Source of the DNA: Eledone cirrhosa
Taxonomy: Eukaryota
DNA: 64,000 bases
Direction: 5' to 3'
Assembly: GCA_964016885.1 (NCBI GenBank)
Contig: OZ024752.1
Span: 15,376,001 to 15,440,000 of the forward strand
A program made the translations under genes and the position numbers. Shown here one piece after another: positions 11,244 through 61,834 of the stretch; the first letter of the stretch is position 1; every line of letters starts with the position of its first letter. Below the pieces are notes generated by a model. It searched no databases and had not been told where the DNA came from. It saw nothing but the letters and a program-made list of their open reading frames with translations.

Positions 11244-11326
<83 letters not shown>

Positions 11327-11617
11327 TGGCTTCTACGGGAATAGAACTGTTTCATTCGAAGGAAACCATCTGATTTCCTTCGAATCAAACAGTTCAAATC
11401 CTGTAGAGGCTATTTCTATATTAAATATTTATACTCTGCTATGTGGTTACCCCCGATTGAACCCGTGATACACACTCACACACTATATATATATATATAA
11501 TTTAATAAAAACAATGAATAAAAACAAAGAACAAGTTTCTTATATTAAAAAATTCATCAATTTACGATCGTTTCTAGGATATATATGTGTGTTGGTATGT
11601 ATATCTACATATATATC

Positions 11618-17522: not shown

Positions 17523-18230
17523 CTGGTCCCTAGTCCTACAGCCCCTCCACCTTCAACCCTCCTCCCAACACCGCTGGTCCCTAGTCCTACAGCCCCTCCA
17601 CCTTCAACCCTCCTCCCAACACCGCTGGTCCCTAGTCTCACAGCCCCTCCACCTTTAACCCTCCTCCCAACACCGCTGGTCCCTAGTCCTACAGCCCCTT
17701 CACCTTCAACCCTCCTCCCAACACCGCTGGTCCCTAGTCATACAGCCCCTCCACCTTCAACCCTCCTCCCAACACCGCTGGTCCCTAGTCCTACAGCCCC
17801 TCCAACTTCAACCCTCCTCCCAACACCGCTGGTCCCTAGTCCTACAGCCCCTCCACCTTCACCCCCCCCCACACCGCTGGTCCCTAGTCCTACAGCCCCT
17901 CCACCTTCAACCCTCCTCCCAACACCGCTGGTCCCTAGTCCTACAGCCCCTCCACCTTCAACCCTCCTCCCAACACCGCTGGTCCCTAATCCTACAGCCC
18001 CTCCACCTTCACCCCCCCCACCGCTGGTCCCTAGTCCTACAGCCCCTCCACCTTCAACGCTCCTCCCAACACCGCTGGTCCCTAGTCCTACAGCCCCTCC
18101 ACCGTCAACCCTCCTCCCCACACCGCTGGTCCCTAGTCCTACAGCCCCTCCACCTTCAACCCTCCTCCCCCCACCGCTGGTCCCTAGTCATACAACCCCT
18201 CCACCTGCAACCCTCCTCCACCCCACCCCC
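17523..18230. repeat. 51-bp GC-rich minisatellite, ~14 units
   Basis: Unit ctggtccctagtcctacagcccctccaccttcaaccctcctcccaacaccg. Confidence 0.95.
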
Positions 18231-18511: not shown

Positions 18512-19107
18512 ATAAATGGAAAAGAATGAAACGAAACTTCATTTCTCACTCTTAGCACGGCTGATACTTAAATATCAGTGTGTACACGTACATATATATA
18601 TGTGTGCATGTATGTATATATATATACATACTACTGTACGTCTGTATACATATATGTATGTGCGTATACATACTTACATTTAAGTATCAGCCGTACTAAG
18701 AGTGAGAAATGAAATTTCGTTTCATTCTTTTCCATTTATCGTTTTCGGTACGCCGGCCGATTAACTCACTTGATATGCACATTAGGCTGCTCAGCCGTTA
18801 ATATGCATAAGGAAAGTATATACTTTAAAACGTTCAATCATCTGACAGGAAGGTATACGATGCTGACGATAGTTAATAAGCTTGAAACTAGTACATCGTT
18901 CCTGTGTCAGTGTTGAACAAAAGGGCGACGATGGGTGCCGAACACTGTACGGCGTAACTCGGGCTGTTTGTTTACAAACAAGCCGAACATTATAATAAAT
19001 TTTCGGTAAACCCATACGTACATATATATATGTGTGCTTGTATGTATATATATATACATACTACTGTACGTCTGTACACATATATGTATGTACGTATACA
19101 TACTTAT
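18512..19107 (+). mobile_element. Retrozyme-like HHR element (~430-nt monomer plus partial repeat, with an inverted 5' piece)
   Basis: ctactgtacgtctgta at 18631 and 19061 (period 430); HHR at 18857-18899; 18512-~18600 is inverted relative to ~18650-18738. Confidence 0.7.
18857..18899 (+). ncRNA. Minimal type I hammerhead ribozyme
   Basis: acgatg CTGACGA tagttaataagctt GAAA ctag TA catcgt. Confidence 0.65.
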
Positions 19108-19119
19108 ATAAATATATAT

Positions 19120-20195: not shown

Positions 20196-20662
20196 CTATA
20201 TATGTATATCTATATATATATATATATGTATATCTATATATGTATATCTATATATGTTTATATATATATATATGTATATCTATATATGTATATCTATATA
20301 TGTATATCTATATATATATATATATATGTATATCTATATATGTATATCTATATATGTATATCTCTCTCTATATATATATATGTATATCTATATATTTATC
20401 TCTATATATATATGTAAGTATGCATGTATACGTACATACATATATGTATACAGACGTACAGTAGCATGCATATATATATATATATATATATACATATATA
20501 TATACATATGCATACAGGTACACATACATATATGCACGTATCAGTTTAGCGGCGCTTATTATAACGTCGCTTTGTTCGTTTGTAAACAAACTGAACAGCC
20601 TGAATTTATGCCATACGGTGTTAAGGCAACCACGTCACCTTTTTGTTCAACACTGACACAGG

Positions 20663-20707
20663 AACGATGTACTAGTTTCAAGCTTGTTAGCTATCATCAG
20701 CACCGTT
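20663..20707 (-). ncRNA. Minimal type I hammerhead ribozyme
   Basis: Reverse complement of 20817-20861. Confidence 0.7.
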
Positions 20708-20816
20708 TACCCATCTGCCGTTTAACTCACTCAATATGCAAATTAGGCTGCTCAGCCGTTAATTTTCATAAGGAAAGTATATACTTTCGAACGTTCAACT
20801 ATCTGGCAGATGGGTA

Positions 20817-20861
20817 AACGGTGCTGATGATAGCTAACAAGCTTGAAACTAGTACATCGTT
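20817..20861 (+). ncRNA. Minimal type I hammerhead ribozyme
   Basis: aacggtg CTGATGA tagct-aaca-agctt GAAA ctag TA catcgtt. Confidence 0.7.
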
Positions 20862-21169
20862 CCTGTGTCAGTGTTGAACAAAAAGGTGACGTGGTTGCCT
20901 TAACACCGTATGGCATAAATTCAGGCTGTTCAGTTTGTTTACAAACGAACAAAGTGACGTTATAATAAGCGCCGCTAAACTGATACGTGCATATATGTAT
21001 GTGTACCTGTATGCATATGTATATATATATGTATATATATATATATATATATGCATGCTACTGTACGTCTGTATACATATATGTACGTACGTATACATGC
21101 ATACTTACATTTAAGTAAGTGCCATTCTAAGAGTGAGAAATGAAATTTCGTTTTCATTTTGTTTCAATT

Positions 21170-22060
<891 letters not shown>

Positions 22061-26174: not shown

Positions 26175-27869
26175 CAGTGCCCCGCAAAAGTTTACAATAC
26201 ATTAGGAAAAATGCGCTTTTAGGTATTTTTAATAAAGTTAGGGTAATGAAAATTTAACTACTGATAGAACATATATTGAGGCATTTAATGATACAATCAT
26301 ATTTTTTTTTAAATAACAAGGAAATAACTCATGAAGAAAAATCAATATTTTTATAACGCAAAAGTTTACAACACATTTATTAAATCATCTCTTAATATTT
26401 CGTAGCGTAACCTTTGTTGCTAATACAGCCTGTAGGGCGTTTGGAGTAGCTTTTTGCATGTTTCTTGGCTAGAATAAATGTTCTAAAATGACCATGTCAG
26501 TCTCCAGATCTTAACCCGATCGAAAATTTGTGGAGAGAATTCAAAAAAGGAAACCCAAAATATCCCTGAACTAAAGAAAATTTGTTTCTTCACAACAAAT
26601 TTTCTTTAGTTCAGGGATATTTTGGGGTTGCCTTTTTTGAATTCTCTCCACAAATTTTCGATCGGGTTAAGATCTGGAGACTGACATGGTCATTGTAGAA
26701 CATTTATTCCATTCGTACTTAACCAAGATTGTGTTAGCTTTGCAGTATGCTTTGGATTGTTGTCTTGTTGAAAAAAACAACCTGGCTTTAAGCTGAGAGA
26801 ATGTGCACTTTGATGTAAATTCCTTTGCAAAATACCTCTATAATAAGCGCCACCCATTCTTCCTTCTATTATTTCAATATTTCCTACACCTGTGGCACTA
26901 AAGCAACCCCAGACCATGACTGATCCACATCCAAATTTTACAGTTGGAATAGTATTCTTCGGCGAATATTCAGTACCTTTCTTTCTCCAGACTTTTGCCA
27001 CAGCATTTCGACCAAAAAGTTCAATTTTTGTTTCGTCCGACTAAAGTACATCTTCCCAAAATGACGCAGGTTTGATGAGATGCTCATTTGCAAAGTTTAA
27101 TCGACGAAGAACGTGTTTCCTCGTAAGAAGTAGTGTTTTCCTTGGAGACCTCGAGAAGATATTATATCGACGAAGTGAACGACTAATTGTATCTGCGCTC
27201 ACTTTTACTCCACTTCCTTCTAGGTTATCCTGAAGATTTTTAAGAGTACACCGGTGTTCGTTGCCAACCTTTCTCGTCCATAACCGAGCTGAACGTTCCG
27301 TTATCTTTCTAGGACAACCAGAACTAATTAAAGGACAGATGGAATGATGAGATTTCCAGTGACGAATTATAGTACCAACTAAACTCAATAGCACATTTAA
27401 CTGACAAGATATCTTTCTATAACCAACAGCATTTGTATGAAGATCTACAATGCGTTTACAGAGGTCTTCATCAATCAGTTTATTTTTCCCCATATTGTCA
27501 ATGTTTACAGGACGGTTGTCAATGTTTACAGGATGGTTGTCAGACAAATAATGACGTAATGTTTTTAATAGTCCTTAGAAGTTACCTTAAACCTAATCTA
27601 GAACATTCTACTGAATTTTAAATCTGAAAATTTAAGAATTTTCCTGAAAAAAAGCGATAAATATAAAATGGGTTGTAAACTTTTGCGTTATAAAAATATT
27701 GATTTTTCTTCATGAGTTATTTCCTTGTTATTTTTTAAAAAATATGATTGTATCATTAAATGCCTCATTATATGTTCTATCAGTAGTTAAATTTTCATTA
27801 CCCTTACTTTATTAAAACTACCTAAAACTGCATTTTTCCTAATGTGTTGTAAACTTTTGCGGGGCACTG
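26175..27869 (-). mobile_element. Tc1-family DNA transposon (IR/DR type, ~200-bp TIRs, TA TSD)
   Basis: TA|cagtgccccgcaaaagtttacaa...ttgtaaacttttgcggggcactg|TA; inner DR cgcaaaagtttacaa at ~26357 and ~27673; transposase remnants inside. Confidence 0.95.
26392..27493 (-). pseudogene. Tc1 DD34E transposase pseudogene
   Basis: MGKNK...SGCPRK..., VL*SDETKIELFG, TVKFGCGSVMVWGCF, FQQDNNPKH, SPDLNPIENLW (34 residues from D to E), NKGYATKY*; two in-frame stops and an internal inversion. Confidence 0.92.
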
Positions 27870-35027: not shown

Positions 35028-35811
35028 GGAATAGAGTCATGACCCCTACGGCTGAGTTCGGATCTAGCTGTCGAAATGCCCGGAGCTCAGCCTTCCGGTT
35101 CATGACTCTTTTCCTATTACCCACTTTATTACCCTACGTATTGAGTTCTCTGGTGCGTTAAGGTCCACCTGGTATCTACCGAACCCCTCTTCGTCATATA
35201 TATATATATATATATATATATTGTTATACTTTGGGAGGGTCATGTTGCCAAGAAGAAACACACGCACCAGAAATTTCACTCCAATTTATTATAAATAAAA
35301 TTTTTTTTTATTTTAATGTTTTTTTCAAAAGAATTTATAAATTTCCGGTTGGTTGGTTCGTTGGTTGGTTCCACAACCGGACGGTTGTTCATATATTGTA
35401 AAAGTTATTTCGTAACATTCTGTGACCTCTTCAGTGACTGGGGATTATTTTCTTTGTTTTCTGCCTCTCCTATGTTCTATCCCAAGCCATCTTGTTTTTG
35501 TGTGTGTTGTGTGCTTAGTTTGCGCATGTGTTACATCCGGGTGTCTGTGTAATTTTTTATTTGTTTATTTACATGTTACTGTTTGGTTGTTTGTTCTGTG
35601 TGTGTGTGTTTTCATTTTGTCCTTAAATGTAAGTTGTGATGTTGCTATTCCATTTATGTTTTCTATTTACTTTTGGTTGGAGTTCTTTTATGTTTATTGC
35701 CTCTGTGATTTGTCTAATCATTGCGTCTGTTCTGTGTGTAGATTTTATTTTTATTTCTATGTTCTCGAATTTGCCCTTATGTTCTATTTTAGCATGTTGG
35801 TGGAGTACAGA

Positions 35812-36005
35812 TTATTCTTTTCTATATTGAAGCTCTCGCCAGTGTTCATTTAATCGTGCTCCTATACTACGAGCTGTCTCACCTATGTACACTATATTCT
35901 TATCTTTACATTGTCCTTCAGTACATCTTATGCTATATACTATGTTTCTAGTTTTACAGTTATTATGGGGACTTAGTTTACAGATTATGCATTTATTATC
36001 TATAC
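35812..36005 (-). pseudogene. Penelope-type GIY-YIG endonuclease fragment
   Basis: CIICKLSPHNNCKTRNIVYSIRCTEGQCKDKNIVYIGETARSIGARLNEH. Confidence 0.85.
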
Positions 36006-36565
36006 AGTGTATAGATAAGAAATGCATAATCTGTAAACTAAGCCCCCATAATAACTGTAAAACTAGAAACATAGTATATAGCATAATATGTACTGAAAGA
36101 TAAGAATATAGTGTACATAGGCGAGACAGCTCGTAGTAGAGGAGAGCGGTTAAATGAACACTGGCGAGAGCTTCAAGATAGAAAATAATCATCAATAGAC
36201 CACCAACATGCTAAAATAGAACATAAGGGCAAATTAGAGAACATAGAAATAAAAATAAAATCTACACAGAGAAAAGACGCAATGTTTAGACAAATCACAG
36301 AGACAATAAACATAATTAAATAGAAAACAAACAAAATTAAATAGAAAACATAAATGGAATAGCAACATCACAACTTACAATTAAGGACAAAATGAGAACA
36401 CACATACATAGAACAAACAACCAACCAGTAACATGTAAATAAACAAATAAAAACACACCGACACCCGGATGTCAAACATGCGCAAACTAAGCACACAACA
36501 CACACACAAACAAGATGGCGTTGGACAGAACAAAGGAGAGGACAAAACAAAGAAAATAATCCCCA

Positions 36566-36608
36566 GTTACTGAAGAGGTCACAGAATGTGTGACGAAAGA
36601 ACTTTTAC
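36566..36608 (+). ncRNA. Hammerhead-like motif in PLE 3' UTR
   Basis: gtta CTGAAGA g gtcaca-gaatg-tgtgac GAAA gaac TT ttac. Confidence 0.5.
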
Positions 36609-37351
36609 AATATATGAATAACCGCCCGGTTGTGGAACCAACCAACCAACCGAAAATTTATAAATTTTTTGGAAAATTTTTTTTAAATTTATAATAAATT
36701 GGAGTGAAAGCGTCTGGTGCGTGTGTTTCTTATTGGCAACATGACCCTCCCAAAGTATAACAATATCGGTCTCAACACACGTTTTCAGATAAAGTATCTT
36801 GCTAAACAAATTCAGAAACTAAATATATATATATATATATATACCCACACATAGGTTTGTGCAAAAGTTGAAAGGTTGCTTCTGTTTTCTGTCGTAGAAT
36901 TTTTACTTCCTTCGTTTTAACTCATTCATAGTAGCGGACTGACAGGAAGTCGGATGGACCAGATTCGACCTTTATTTATATAGCTTAATGGCGTTATCGT
37001 CATATGTAGTAATTCATTCGAGCTGTGTTTAGTTCCAGACAAATCTATTACATAATGTATATTATGTATGTTATGCAGCTAGAGAAATATGATGCTCAGT
37101 TAATAAATTTTTGTTTTTGTTTTACATAGATTTCACATTATAACTGTCGTTATTTCATATAGTCATGACAACACGTTGTTAAATGGTTTTACAGTATATT
37201 GAGACACCATGTATATAATTTCAGTTACTTATATCTACTAATATTAGCTGGAAATTTATATTCATATCTGGATTTTGTAGATGTTTCGTTATTTTCAGAC
37301 AGTTTGCAGCGATACTTTTCCCATTTTCGGAATATATACACAAATGAGTAT

Positions 37352-39982: not shown

Positions 39983-40047
<65 letters not shown>

Positions 40048-40362
40048 AGTCGTTTGGAAGCCTCGACAATGCAAATGGGTTAATCTCCGGTAACAAGATC
40101 CGGTGGCGGAGAGAGAGATGTAAGTGGGTGTACGTTGAGATGCGTGGTGTGTATAAGACGTGTAGAGGAATGAAGGAAAGAGTATAAAGGATAAAATTAA
40201 AATAACAACACGAGAGAGAGTTACCTTGGGAGAGATTTAATTGTCCCTATATATTTCGGATTCACATCCATCAACTGGGGTTTTTTCCGGGGTGGGGGAA
40301 AGGTTGTCTGTCGGAAAGGTGCGTCCTCCGCTGTTTGTTGTTTTGAATATCCGAGGCATTCA

Positions 40363-40678
40363 GCAACCACGTCACCTTTTTGTTCAACACTGACACAGGA
40401 ACGATGTAGTAGTTTCAAGCTTCTTAGCTATCATCAGCACCATATACCCTTCTGCCAGATGGTTGAACGTTCGAAAGTATATACTTTCCTTATGAAAATT
40501 AACGGCTGAGCAGTCTAATTTGCATATCGAGTGAGTTCAGTCGGCCAGGCGCACCGAAAACGATAAGTTGGAATAGGATGAAACGAAATTTCATTTCTCA
40601 CTCTTAGTACGGCACTTACTTAAATGTAAGTATGTATGTATACGTACATACATATATGTATACAGACGCACAGTAGCA

Positions 40679-40728
<50 letters not shown>

Positions 40729-41040
40729 ATATATACATACAGGTACGTTCAACCATCTGGCAGAAGGGTATATGGTGCTGATGATAGCTAAGAAGCTTGA
40801 AACTACTACATCGTTCCTGTGTCAGTGTTGAACAAAAAGGTGACGTGGTTGCCTTAACACCGTACGGCATAAATCAGGGTGTCCGTTTGTTTACAAACGG
40901 ACAAAGCGGGCGCTATAATAAACGTCCGCTAAACTGATACGTACATATATATATGTGTACCTGTATATATATATATATATATATATAGATGCTACTGTAC
41001 GTCTGTATACATATATGTATGTACGTATACATACTTACAT
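40363..41040. mobile_element. Inverted pair of retrozyme-like HHR units
   Basis: Minus copy 40363-40745 and plus copy 40745-41040; HHR motifs at 40401-40443 (-) and 40772-40814 (+). Confidence 0.8.
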
Positions 41041-41052
41041 ATATATATATAC

Positions 41053-41822: not shown

Positions 41823-41825
41823 ACA

Positions 41826-41925
41826 GTTCTAGTCCTGTAGAAGCTTTTCTATATCAAACATTTATACTCTGCTATGTATTGAGTACCTTACTTACTGTGG
41901 TTACCTCCGATTGAACCCGGGATAT

Positions 41926-41967
<42 letters not shown>

Positions 41968-42198
41968 CACAATAGATATATATAGATATATATATATATA
42001 TATATAAGTTTGCCCGGGTTCATCGGAGGTAACCACATTAAGTAAGGTACTCAATACATAGCAGAGTATAAATGTTTAATATAGAAAAGCTTCTACAGGA
42101 CTAGAACTGTTTCATTCGTGAGAAATCATCAGGAAGCTTCCTGATGATTTCTCACGAATGAAACGGTTCTAGTCCTGTAGAAGCTTTTCTATATTAAA
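41826..42198. repeat. Nested inverted repeats with back-to-back HHR-like cores
   Basis: 41826-41921 is the reverse complement of 42013-42108; palindrome 42075-42198 centred on aagctt with CTGATGA...GAAA on both strands; relatives at 7970-8045, 11330-11470 and 55645-55780. Confidence 0.8.
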
Positions 42199-42206
42199 TA
42201 TATACG

Positions 42207-49629: not shown

Positions 49630-49753
49630 CATATATACATATATATATATTGTTATACTTTGGGAGGGTCATGTTGCCAATAAGAAACACACGCACCAGT
49701 TGCTTTCAGTTCAATTTATTATATATTTATAAATTTATAACAAATTCAGAAAC

Positions 49754-55338: not shown

Positions 55339-55798
55339 CACTTGACCATTCCTGCAGACTTCAGCATCCTTTGATACCATGCAGAGGATGTTAATATAGC
55401 CACCGAAATCCTTTTGTTTGCTTAGAATAAATGAACCCTGAAAACAGGTGTGGCTGTAAGTGCGTTTGTTCTTATTGTGAATGTATTTATATTACTATCT
55501 ATATATCGCTTTAAATATTGTTTTTTCAGATTATCCCCCTTCTTAAAATCCCTTGGCCAACGACCTCCTCACAACCCAATCGCCACCTTCCCCATCCATT
55601 AGAAAACGTATAAATACCACCATATCACAATGCCAGTTGGATTTTCTGTTGATTTCCTTCAAATGAAACAGTTCTAGTCCTGTAGATGCCATTTCTATAT
55701 TAAACATTTATACTCTGCTATGTATTGAATACCTTACTTACTGTGGTTACCCCCGATTGAACCCGGGATACACACTCACTAACATACACACACACACT

Positions 55799-56812: not shown

Positions 56813-56896
<84 letters not shown>

Positions 56897-57112
56897 GTTA
56901 AAAATGTACATCTACATATGCATACTGAAATACTTGTATGCATATGAATACACACACGTATACATATGTAGATGTACCAAGTCTTTCACTGGCTACTTTA
57001 CTGTGAGTAATCCAGCTATTCTGTATGTAAACACACAGACAAACCGGTTTTTAGAGTCATACTGGTTTTTGAGGAAACACCTTTCCTCTATTCCCCAGAA
57101 AGCCAGACAAGG

Positions 57113-57157
57113 AATATTGAACTAGTTTCGTTGTTGTTACAACTCATCAGCAATATT
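57113..57157 (-). ncRNA. Type I hammerhead ribozyme, canonical core
   Basis: Minus strand: aatattg CTGATGA gttg-taacaa-caac GAAA ctag TT caatatt. Confidence 0.88.
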
Positions 57158-57578
57158 TACCTATCTACCGGCCTTTCTGGAGAATCGTAAAAGCACATAT
57201 CGTTATATGCTTTTTCTATGAAAATTAGTAGTGGGCAGACTAATTTGCATAGAGTGTGAGTACGTACCGGTTCAACGGAGACGATAAAAACAAATAACGA
57301 AACGAAATTAAATTTCGTTTCGTTTGTAACTCACTTTTGTATGACTGACGCTTAAACAATTAAGTTAAAAATGTACATCTACATATGCATACTGAAATAC
57401 TAGTATGCATATGAATACACACACGTATACATATGTAGATGTACCAAGTCTTTCACTGGTTACTTTACTGTGAGAATCCAGCTATTCTGTATGTAAACAC
57501 ACAGACAAACCGGTTTTTAGAGTCATACTGGTTTTTGAGGAAACACCTTTCCTCTATTCTCCAGAAAGCCAGACAAGG

Positions 57579-57623
57579 AATATTGAACTAGTTTCGTTGT
57601 TGTTACAACTCATCAGCAATATT
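57579..57623 (-). ncRNA. Type I hammerhead ribozyme, canonical core
   Basis: Identical to 57113-57157. Confidence 0.88.
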
Positions 57624-58044
57624 TACCTATCTACCGGCCTTTCTGGAGAATCGTAAAAGCACATATCGTTATATGCTTTTTCTATGAAAATTAGTAGTGG
57701 GCAGACTAATTTGCATAGAGTGTGAGTACGTACCGGTTCAACGGAGACGATAAAAACAAATAACGAAACGAAATTAAATTTCGTTTCGTTTGTAACTCAC
57801 TTTTGTATGACTGACGCTTAAACAATTAAGTTAAAAATGTACATCTACATATGCATACTGAAATACTAGTATGCATATGAATACACACACGTATACATAT
57901 GTAGATGTACCAAGTCTTTCACTGGTTACTTTACTGTGAATATCCAGCTATTCTGTATGTAAACACACAGACAAACCGGTTTTTAGAGTCATACTGGTTT
58001 TTGAGGAAACACCTTTCCTCTATCCTCCAGAAAGCCAGACAAGG

Positions 58045-58089
58045 AATATTGAACTAGTTTCGTTGTTGTTACAACTCATCAGCAATATT
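58045..58089 (-). ncRNA. Type I hammerhead ribozyme, canonical core
   Basis: Identical to 57113-57157. Confidence 0.88.
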
Positions 58090-58138
58090 TACCTATCTAC
58101 CGGCCTTTCTGGAGAATCGTAAAAGCACATATCGTACT

Positions 58139-59071: not shown

Positions 59072-60377
59072 ATGTTTCACGGACACACATTCATGTATGT
59101 AACAAAATAAATTGACAGCATTTTTATAAATGAATAAACCTATGCTCAATGTATTGGCCTTTATATTTGAATTAGAAAAAGTAACATCAAGTGCGTGTAA
59201 ATTCTGATACGATGTCTTAATCTTCCAAGAGGAACAGTCCTCTGATTGAAAGAAAATATGTCATGAGAAATTAAATACATCTAATAGTGTACCTGAATAT
59301 GCAAAATCATACTAGTTATTAACTTTTCAGCATATTTGGTAAAGTAGATGTGTACAAAATAAACCCGTTGATCTACAACAAAGGCTACTGTATGGCCCAT
59401 CGATAGCTGTGTAGGGCTTATAGGTTTACGGTCAACACAATATGATAATATTCCCTTTTCAAATATGTTCCTGAAAACAGTGCACTAATATAATTATAGG
59501 ATTTCAATTTACAAAGAAACCAAATCTTAGTTACAAAGCAGATGTTATTTTCGTTATCAATAATTTTTGCCCTCGGATTCAATAAGCACCCCTACAAAAG
59601 ACAAAAGCACGCAAGTTAGATTAAAGTTTTATGAAAATATTATTGATCAAAATTCATTTTATGCTGAAACATAAAATTCTGTTAGGTTAAATTTTTTTAT
59701 GGATCATTAGTCTATTGTTTTATGTTAGATAACGTATGTATTACATTAAATTTCATATACTTTGTGTTGTTGTTTCCTTTAGGAGATGTGCAGTAACCAT
59801 TTCTGGTTTCTAACTTCTACCTTCGCGTGGGTCATTGAACACTTCTTTCATATATCTTTCAAATTGTGTTTCTTTTATTCTATGGAAGTGATTCAATTAT
59901 AGATTTTAAATTGATTCTGTGGGGCATGTATCATACTGTAGCTTCATGTATCATACTGTATCATGTATCATACTGTATCATACTGTATCATACTGCCATC
60001 TGGAACCCCGATGTCGCGTATACTATGAAATCAGTTTTGCTTGATTTATTGATTTGTAAAGTATATATTTTCATGCATGTTGTTTTATTTCATCGTCAAA
60101 GGAAATTTTCTGAAATTCAGTGGTTTTGTTCTTCTTTTTTGCATATAAATATTTTAAAATGTATTAAGCCTTATTTCTTTGAAATTGTCGTATTGTTGTT
60201 CTCATAACCTCGGTAGGTGTAACATGGCGGTATAATATTAATTTAATAATTTTAGAGGCATGTTTCCTAGACCGCTATTCATGTGCTGTTTTCTCACATG
60301 CTAATAGGAAATAGCATGTTGTTTCTTGAGGTTTCATATCTGATAAGGATATTTTTAATGTGCTCACGATAATTCGG

Positions 60378-60580
60378 TCTGTTTGTTTGTTTGCAAACAA
60401 ACAAACCGAACATTATAATAAATGTTCGGTAAACCCATACGTACATATATATATGTTTGCATGTATGTATACACACTACTGTACGTCTGTATACATATAT
60501 GTATGTACGTATACATACATACTTACATTTAAATATCAGCCGTACAAAGAGTGAGAAACGAAATTTCGTTTCATTCTTTT

Positions 60581-60583
<3 letters not shown>
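60378..60583 (+). mobile_element. Fragment of the ~430-nt retrozyme-like family (no HHR)
   Basis: Matches 18964-19107 and continues into sequence matching 18670-18735. Confidence 0.75.
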
Positions 60584-60617
<34 letters not shown>

Positions 60618-60948: not shown

Positions 60949-61038
60949 ATGTTTCACGGACACACATTCATGTATGTAACAAAATAAATTGACAGCATTT
61001 TTATAAATGAATAAACCTATGCTCAATGTATTGGCCTT
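60818..61038 (+). repeat. Local duplication of 58947-59161
   Basis: Identical except for (TA)n length. Confidence 0.92.
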
Positions 61039-61834
61039 GGACCTATGGACAACTTCCAGAAGTCCCTGGCCTGGCAGTGCTACCGAGGGGCTTTACCCGT
61101 TCGAGAAAGGCTCTACAGACACGGGCGCCCGGGTAGGGACCCCGCCAAAAAGATCTGTCCCAGATGCGTGTGCGACGAGGAAACCGTTGCACACGCATTG
61201 GTACACTGCTCGGGCGTAGCCGATCTGTGGGGCTATGTCGAACAACTGCTGTCAAGGGTGGAACCGATCCGGTTGACCACCGAGTCTATTGTAATGATCA
61301 AGCCGCCTCCCCCCTTCAAAGATGAAGCAGAGGCGGTGTTTCTGTGCGTAATAGCCATGGCGAAAGAGGTTGTATGGTGGACGCGTCTGAAAGGACTGAG
61401 GTCAGGCACCTTTCTCTCTGGCCAACAACTGGTCCGTTTCTTCCGATATCATTTCGGAAGAAGGATCAGGATGGAGAGAGAGGTGCTGCACCCCAGCCGT
61501 TTCTATGAAAGATGGGTGAAAGTGGCGAGAATGGCCCGTGTGAATGGGCCTTCACTCTACATCAGACTATAGGTGAGGAAGATGAAAGACCAAGGGAGCA
61601 CCCCTTCTCTGTGCTCCTGAGGAGAAGGGTTGCACACTTTTTTCGGGGGTGTGTGCGACCCCCCAAGGCGCCTCCTCTCTATTGAGGATTTTGTTAAAAA
61701 TTTTATTTTTTGTTATATCTTATTTTATTTTTATATTTTGTTATTGCCTCCTCCTTATTGAGGACGCCTTTTTGTGTAAACTCCCCCCTTTGTACTTGTC
61801 CCACTTTTGATGCCCTAGTGGCAAATAAAAGAAA
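61039..61834 (+). mobile_element. 5'-truncated L1/Tx1-clade LINE (ORF2 C-terminus plus 3' UTR)
   Basis: Zinc-knuckle ORF followed by aataaaagaaa and (TATC)n. Confidence 0.8.
61045..61572 (+). pseudogene. ORF2 C-terminal fragment with zf-RVT-type CCHC motif
   Basis: AWQCYRGALPVRERL...CPRCVCDEETVAHALVHC...VVWWTR; open for 175 codons but lacks RT and EN domains. Confidence 0.8.

What the first reader, a model, noticed from the sequence alone, without database searches (positions are those of the whole stretch)
18512..19107. Dispersed, circularly permuted ~430-nt HHR family related to the tandem array
Seen: at 18593-19107 the sequence runs one 430-nt period and restarts. Copies at 20413-21167, 40363-41040 and 60378-60583 begin and end at different points of the same cycle. 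None is attached to coding sequence. They share blocks with the 466-nt unit in the same order (HHR with ctag stem III, tatgaaaatta..gcag.ctaatttgcata..gtgagt, acgataa, aaacgaaatt, ctcact.tt.gta). Inference: variable permutation and longer-than-monomer inserts are what reverse transcription of a circular or multimeric RNA would leave, so there would be two subfamilies of one non-autonomous element in 64 kb.
Basis: partly seen in the sequence, partly recalled or inferred. Interest (0 to 1): 0.75.

Follow-up and report, generated by a model that had tools for sequence, protein, structure and literature searches.

The report
Penelope-footprint hammerhead retrozyme family
These are copies of a very abundant non-coding repeat that carries a predicted self-cutting RNA motif and sits in (AT)n runs as back-to-back arms ending at two fixed points, the mark of Penelope-type jumping genes, which likely copied it from a small RNA circle; the kind is known, but its copying route is now testable.

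Summary
The repeat is real, but the copies are not freely permuted. The unit is 431 nt (relatives 478 and 466 nt) with a covarying type I hammerhead. The genome holds 39,319 exact core matches and roughly 45,000 insertions. Only 5' ends vary. In two samples 153 of 177 and 54 of 64 3' ends fall at two fixed internal sites 57-69 nt apart, mostly running into (AT)n. Many insertions, including 18512-19109, are head-to-head arms; 63 of 64 classifiable pairs have one long and one short end. The longer-than-monomer point survives: arms cross the ribozyme cut cleanly, and rare alleles fill every pass of both arms (up to 10 of 10). This favours a one-monomer, probably circular template. DNA-level expansion and a nicked circle are not excluded. 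A young autonomous PLE with the same anatomy is a candidate driver but shares no sequence. Verdict: a new member of the metazoan non-LTR retrozymes. This scan reported the same system before on other pieces of this genome.

The parts
18512..18600 (-). Inverted left arm, unit positions 187-276; its 3' end is the long site and runs into AT-rich flank
18586..19109 (+). Right arm, 524 nt (1.2 units), unit 123 round to 216; ends at the short site; 97% to the 431-nt family majority; overlaps the left arm by about 15 nt in a palindromic hairpin
18851..18903 (+). Type I hammerhead motif: core 18863-18869 and 18884-18887, palindromic stem III, predicted cut after 18893
18776..18783 (+). Octamer-like site (one change in this copy; intact in the majority units of all three subfamilies); promoter role untested
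20409..20719 (-). 478-nt subfamily, left arm, ends at the short site, one hammerhead
20721..21172 (+). 478-nt subfamily, right arm, ends at the long site, one hammerhead
40363..40741 (-). Left arm of an intermediate subfamily (91% to the 478 unit); stops at unit position 44, fused to a PLE end; shares a stem III variant with the right arm
40730..41047 (+). Right arm, ends at the short site into (AT)n
40045..40362 (-). 3' end (pLTR with minimal-hammerhead-like motif) of an autonomous-type RT plus GIY-YIG PLE family, joined to the retrozyme arm with a 3-nt microhomology
56891..58135 (-). 466-nt subfamily, single arm of 2.7 units with three hammerheads, 3' end at the short site into (AT)n
60370..60588 (+). 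5'-truncated single arm of the 431 family (unit 62-276), ends at the long site, no hammerhead

Best explanation
This is a non-coding hammerhead repeat whose insertions end at two fixed internal sites in (AT)n, and it is likely a non-LTR retrozyme copied in trans by a Penelope-like reverse transcriptase-endonuclease from a probably circular monomer RNA. Steps: (1) inferred: arrays are transcribed, and tandem hammerheads pair through the palindromic stem III and cut out monomers; (2) inferred, from coral, mussel and axolotl work: a host ligase closes the monomer, which has one hammerhead and resists recutting; (3) shown as a footprint, enzyme inferred: both strands of an (AT)n target prime cDNA at two internal sites 57-69 nt apart, one site per strand; (4) shown: each arm runs a variable distance, often past the cut site and up to about 12 units in young copies; (5) shown: the two 5' ends are joined head to head, mostly with a few bases of overlap. 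Retrozyme plus PLE mobilisation: about 0.9. One-monomer template (closed or nicked circle): about 0.7. Covalently closed circle: about 0.55.
For: 3' ends at two sites: 153 of 177 (chance about 5.5%) and 54 of 64; 133 of 153 run into AT repeat. Pairs with both ends classed: 49 long+short, 1 long+long, 0 short+short; 14 of 14 long+short. Contigs of another run show (AT)n loose ends at the same two sites. Two autonomous PLE families in this genome show two ends into (AT)n. Hammerhead: 95.6% of cells paired, 8 of 15 pairs changed on both sides, slid controls at most 49% paired. Cut site: 301 crossings, no insertion within 10 nt, one deletion lineage present in 5 of 5 passes. Only 5 of 205 5' ends lie within 10 nt of the cut, 9.4 expected. 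49 minor alleles are fixed in all passes (at least 3 passes or both arms); at sites with 3 or more passes, 80 variants are in all passes and 18 in some. One CpG transition occurs as a single-unit change (1 of 12, 1 of 9 passes) and as an all-unit allele (10 of 10, both arms).
Against: Expression, cleavage and circles were not observed. No autonomous PLE shares sequence with the unit: none in 50 PLE loci apart from independent neighbouring copies, and no meaningful local match for two candidate families. A 32-hammerhead array shows intermediate-frequency variants and periodic unit lengths, so DNA-level expansion does occur. 18 partly shared variants, including a mosaic insertion (L058), do not fit one template. 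In the older 431 family 40 of 60 recurrent variants were in one arm only (many transitions, likely later decay). In the window chimera both outer ends are near short sites, which breaks the long+short rule. BLAST-based samples were biased towards arms that cross the cut, which weakens the 5'-end test. The covariation set has 12 related sequences in a few lineages.
Confidence: 0.7

Rival explanations
1. Nicked circle or end-to-end jumping: the cut linear monomer is held together by stem I, and the RT jumps across the break each round. No ligation is needed.
For: It explains shared alleles equally well. A 7-nt deletion equal to loss of the last 7 nt before the cut occurs in two insertions, once in 5 of 5 passes.
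Against: No insertion at 301 crossings. Only 47 deletion-bearing junctions genome-wide for the pattern covering the 431/478 types; most are single-base losses or sit at 2-nt microhomologies by inspection. No pile-up of 5' ends at the cut (5 of 205).
Confidence: 0.13
2. Linear multimer template: PLE RT copies uncut tandem transcripts, or rolling-circle RNA products, and arrays regrow by unequal crossing-over in DNA.
For: In vitro a PLE used unprocessed RNA and its hammerhead was dispensable (PMC11167929). The 32-hammerhead array shows DNA-level expansion. Li et al. 2026 suggest local amplification.
Against: Single-unit private changes are common (69, 59 and 126 in the three families), yet I saw none mirrored at the same unit index in the partner arm among the multi-pass insertions printed. 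Rare alleles fill both opposed arms (8 of 8, 10 of 10). The youngest families had the longest arms in my samples. A multimer made by RNA rolling from a circle cannot be told apart by genome data.
Confidence: 0.13
3. One reading: a circle primed at arbitrary points, giving freely permuted inserts.
For: 5' ends are spread round the whole unit.
Against: 3' ends are fixed at two sites in 86% and 84% of arms. Many of the 24 exceptions abut other repeats, and in several the arm resumes further on.
Confidence: 0.02
4. DNA element (MITE, Helitron-like or satellite) with inverted ends and no RNA stage.
For: The insertions look palindromic and some arrays are long.
Against: The two outer ends differ (long and short), arm lengths vary freely, the hammerhead covaries, and the layout matches RT-encoding PLEs in the same genome.
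Confidence: 0.02

Closest known systems
Metazoan non-LTR retrozymes (Cervera and de la Pena 2020, PMC7229834: passages and Discussion read; Li, Clavereau and Pollet 2026, 10.64898/2026.07.22.740005: parts 1-3 of 5 read)
   Same: Type I hammerhead in a low-GC, non-coding tandem unit of a few hundred bases; tens of thousands of copies; weak palindromic stem III as in amphibian motifs; PLEs proposed as the mobiliser.
   Different: Units of 431-478 nt are above the 170-400 nt of the 2020 paper and within Li's 51-972. The parts read do not describe two fixed 3' ends, long+short two-armed insertions or allele sharing. Li found pLTR similarity in Xenopus; none was found here.
EN+ Penelope-like elements (Frangieh 2024, PMC11167929: parts 1-2 of 4 read; Craig 2021, 10.1101/2021.04.23.441226: passages; Arkhipova 2013, PMC3846280: passages; Cervera 2014, PMC4209133: passages)
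   Same: Tail on one end only, inverted 5'-truncated arm, (TA)n target, two internal RT start sites downstream of a hammerhead; circle-templated more-than-unit copying was proposed in 2014.
   Different: No ORF; tail 57-69 nt rather than 30-40; full type I hammerhead with a stem I internal loop rather than a minimal one; arms are multi-unit arrays.
Plant LTR retrozymes (as summarised in PMC7229834 and Li 2026)
   Same: Non-autonomous hammerhead element with a circular RNA stage.
   Different: Those have type III hammerheads in LTRs, PBS/PPT and 4-bp TSDs; this has a type I motif and microsatellite targets.

Membership tests
Metazoan non-LTR retrozyme | Type I hammerhead in each unit | tested here: met
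   Core and three stems with covariation. Below Rfam gathering scores; best hammerhead model HH9 at E 0.41.
Metazoan non-LTR retrozyme | Short low-GC tandem unit, monomers to multimers, many copies | tested here: met
   431/466/478 nt; about 36-40% GC outside simple repeats; 39,319 core matches, control 1.
Metazoan non-LTR retrozyme | No protein-coding ORF | tested here: met
   PLE protein matches in 5 of 90 retrozyme loci lie outside the units.
Metazoan non-LTR retrozyme | No PBS or PPT | not tested
   Not examined.
Metazoan non-LTR retrozyme | Self-cleavage and expression as linear and circular RNA | not testable with these tools
   Needs bench work or raw RNA reads.
Penelope-like element (autonomous) | RT plus GIY-YIG ORF | tested here: not met
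   No ORF in the unit; not filed as an autonomous PLE.
PLE-mobilised non-autonomous element | Tail on one end only (two 3' ends) | tested here: met
   63 of 64 classifiable pairs long+short.
PLE-mobilised non-autonomous element | Head-to-head inverted 5'-truncated arm | tested here: met
   65 pairs and 21.
PLE-mobilised non-autonomous element | Microsatellite target | tested here: met
   133 of 153 ends followed by AT repeat.
PLE-mobilised non-autonomous element | Sequence similarity to the 3' end of an autonomous partner | tested here: inconclusive
   None in 50 PLE loci out of 10,595 GIY-YIG candidates, and none meaningful for two further families. Most PLE families were not examined.
Plant LTR retrozyme | Type III hammerhead in LTRs | tested here: not met
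   Stem I is the open stem (type I).

The most novel reading that the evidence does not exclude
A Penelope-type enzyme pair primes both ends of an (AT)n break on one sealed RNA circle, at two fixed sites, and rolls round it in trans. It recognises the circle by structure alone. The driver is the young PLE family seen in L257 and L344-L362: copies 96-99% alike, stop-free frames up to 978 aa, a tail of about 56-60 nt, long+short arms, and one fusion to a young retrozyme arm.
Probability: 0.25. Interest if true: 0.7.

Novelty: new member of a known kind. Interest (0 to 1): 0.42.

Why it matters
Animal retrozymes have been proposed to spread through RNA circles and PLE enzymes, but the papers read give no insertion-level footprint. 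Here the ends name two exact priming sites, the allele pattern constrains the template, and young PLEs with uninterrupted frames lie in the same genome. That makes rolling-circle retrotransposition testable with an existing in vitro assay. The family covers about 0.75% of a 3-Gb genome. The kind is known, and this scan has described the system several times, so the surprise is moderate.

Tried and rejected
RNA: no RNA holder listed. One run of unknown kind holds a single 496-nt contig (466+30) of the 466 unit; a circle or a tandem array would both give this, so it is not used. One search added only that 431-type pieces occur in all four runs. A-to-I editing scars: private variants A>G 32 against T>C 50; fixed minor alleles 11 against 4, p=0.07; not supported, not excluded. 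snRNA-type promoter: no match above shuffles to 100 nt upstream of three U2 genes, which have no exact octamer within 330 nt; U1 and U6 were not tested; the octamer-like site remains unexplained. Mosaic arrays in the 478 family first looked like a multimer template, but proved to be single CpG changes picked up by my query. Retrozyme copies near PLE ORFs in 4 of 50 loci fit background density. Rfam microRNA hits are AT-hairpin artefacts below gathering score. The isolated 78-nt hammerheads of the 431/478 types do not fold better than shuffles (z about -0.8 to 0); the whole units do (z -4.9 and -12.2). A 77-nt tail query found nothing (uninformative). One search timed out. The two chimeras could be template switches, or later PLE insertion with deletion; they are suggestive only.

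Full report
Setting. The window lies in a 3.0-Gb animal genome rich in (AT)n. I take it to be an octopod from a recalled SINE and from earlier notes; no call tested this. Unit positions below count from the base after the predicted ribozyme cut (window 18894 = 1).

Observation. The 430-nt period is real: 84 of 88 bases match where the unit restarts. Majority units are 431, 478 and 466 nt; the 40-kb copy is an intermediate type, 91% to the 478 unit.

Abundance. Sixty evenly placed 10-kb stretches held 9 insertions covering 4,494 of 600,000 bases, which gives about 45,000 insertions (95% interval 20,500-85,000). An exact hammerhead-core pattern matches 39,319 times; the reversed control matches once.

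Ribozyme. Each full unit has a type I hammerhead: a 6-bp stem I with an internal loop, a 4-bp stem II with a 6-nt loop, and a palindromic stem III. Over 12 sequences 95.6% of cells pair and 8 of 15 pairs change on both sides; slid controls reach at most 49%. The sequences are related, so this is support, not a probability. Rfam gives nothing at gathering score and HH9 at E 0.41. Such a stem III works poorly in monomers and well in dimers (PMC4209133 and PMC7229834, passages). Cleavage here is inferred.

Ends. In BLAST-selected loci 153 of 177 arms end at one of two sites (431: 219/276; 466: 233/302; 478: 263/322), against about 5.5% by chance; one arm at a locus edge was left out. 133 of the 153 run into AT repeat. 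Of 65 head-to-head pairs, 49 are long+short, 1 long+long, none short+short, and 15 have an unclassed end. A second sample (29 loci from the first core matches on contig C1, plus 10 multi-unit arrays I chose; one locus overlaps) gave 54 of 64 ends and 14 of 14 classifiable pairs out of 21. Many unclassed ends abut other repeats. Contigs of another run show (AT)n joined at the same two sites of the 466 unit. The 5' ends scatter, and inversion joints mostly overlap by a few bases. This is the PLE layout: an inverted 5'-truncated arm, a tail at one end and (TA)n targets (Craig 2021 and Arkhipova 2013, passages). In vitro the tail is the stretch between two internal RT start sites, and both target strands are cut and extended (PMC11167929, parts 1-2).

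Template. In one search, 125 of 151 arms cross the cut (selection-biased) and 34 cross it twice or more. Only 5 of 205 5' ends lie within 10 nt of the cut, 9.4 expected. At 301 crossings there is no insertion within 10 nt and one deletion, present in 5 of 5 passes of one arm. Genome-wide, 47 deletion-bearing junctions match the 431/478 pattern. In the 466 family both arms share recurrent alleles in 36 of 39 cases; in the older 431 family only in 20 of 60. Across 117 insertions 49 minor alleles are fixed in all passes; at sites with three or more passes, 80 variants are in all passes and 18 in some. One CpG site is telling: 1,726 exact copies carry C and 35 carry T. T appears either once in an array (1 of 12, 1 of 9 passes) or in every unit, up to 10 of 10 in both arms. 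A change that arises in one unit thus came to fill whole insertions, which needs a one-monomer bottleneck followed by amplification. A sealed circle is the simplest source (inference). Against this: a 32-hammerhead array shows intermediate-frequency variants and periodic unit lengths, so DNA-level growth occurs; L058 is mosaic; and a nicked circle or RNA rolling-circle multimers would look much the same.

Partner. The genome has many RT plus GIY-YIG PLEs (10,595 candidates). None of 50 loci shared sequence with the unit beyond neighbouring copies. Two fusions were found. At window 40363 the arm joins, with a 3-nt microhomology, the 3' end of a PLE family that has its own two ends about 40 nt apart; both outer ends are near short sites, which does not fit the rule. 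In L257 a young 478-type arm joins, through a 24-nt filler, an uninterrupted RT-endonuclease piece ending in (AT)n. That family is young (listed copies 96-99%, 3,344 candidates), has ends about 56-60 nt apart, 4 of 4 listed inverted pairs with classed ends long+short, and stop-free frames up to 978 aa with RT motifs, a CX4CxxC linker and a YIG motif. Its Pfam RT match is weak (E 3e-4, below cut-off). It shares no meaningful sequence with the unit. It is a candidate only.

Comparison and novelty. The element meets the sequence features of metazoan non-LTR retrozymes and works like a non-autonomous PLE. Circle-templated copying and PLE mobilisation were proposed (PMC4209133, PMC7229834), and Li 2026 adds phylogenetic support in vertebrates. 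Six searches listed no paper on cephalopod retrozymes or on retrozyme end mapping. The library lacks most subscription papers, and I read no supplements; those of PMC7229834 and Li 2026 may bear on this. I recorded the two-end reading before opening the earlier notes, which report the same system on other pieces of this genome. Two notes favour cut or edited templates; my tests found no clear editing bias and clean junctions.

Verdict. A new member of a known kind, with good genomic evidence for PLE-type insertion and moderate evidence for a circular template. Interest 0.42.

Noticed in passing
window 35221-36822: Older two-armed PLE insertion (short end left, long end right, GIY-YIG fragments), 77-88% like the young candidate-partner family; a 106-nt piece also lies at 49647-49752.
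   Followed up: partly
window 41823-42204, 55646-55775, 11324-11475; L044:2554-2638 (-): Pieces of a more distant hammerhead repeat family with a different palindromic stem III.
   Followed up: partly
G000:C1:5738326-5752444 (L293, L294): Array with 31+1 hammerheads of a 466-type variant; intermediate-frequency alleles and periodic 467-nt units suggest DNA-level expansion.
   Followed up: partly
L305 (G000:C1:184445918-184447812): All 5 junctions lack the 7 nt before the cut, so every hammerhead in that arm is broken; the same loss occurs once on C19.
   Followed up: partly
L202: A 478-type array and a 466-type array lie in the same 10-kb stretch on the same strand.
   Followed up: no
window 4356, 4199(-), 38142(-), 46751, 55126, 58430(-): Minimal-hammerhead-like motifs typical of PLE pLTR remnants.
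   Followed up: no
window 27044-27574 (-); 61015-61569 (+): Tc1/mariner transposase piece and a LINE zf-RVT 3' end.
   Followed up: no
window 17523-18219: 51-bp C-rich minisatellite, 13.8 copies, just left of the finding.
   Followed up: no
L241-L252: U2 snRNA genes in tandem arrays of about 2.2-kb period; no exact octamer within 330 nt upstream of three genes.
   Followed up: no
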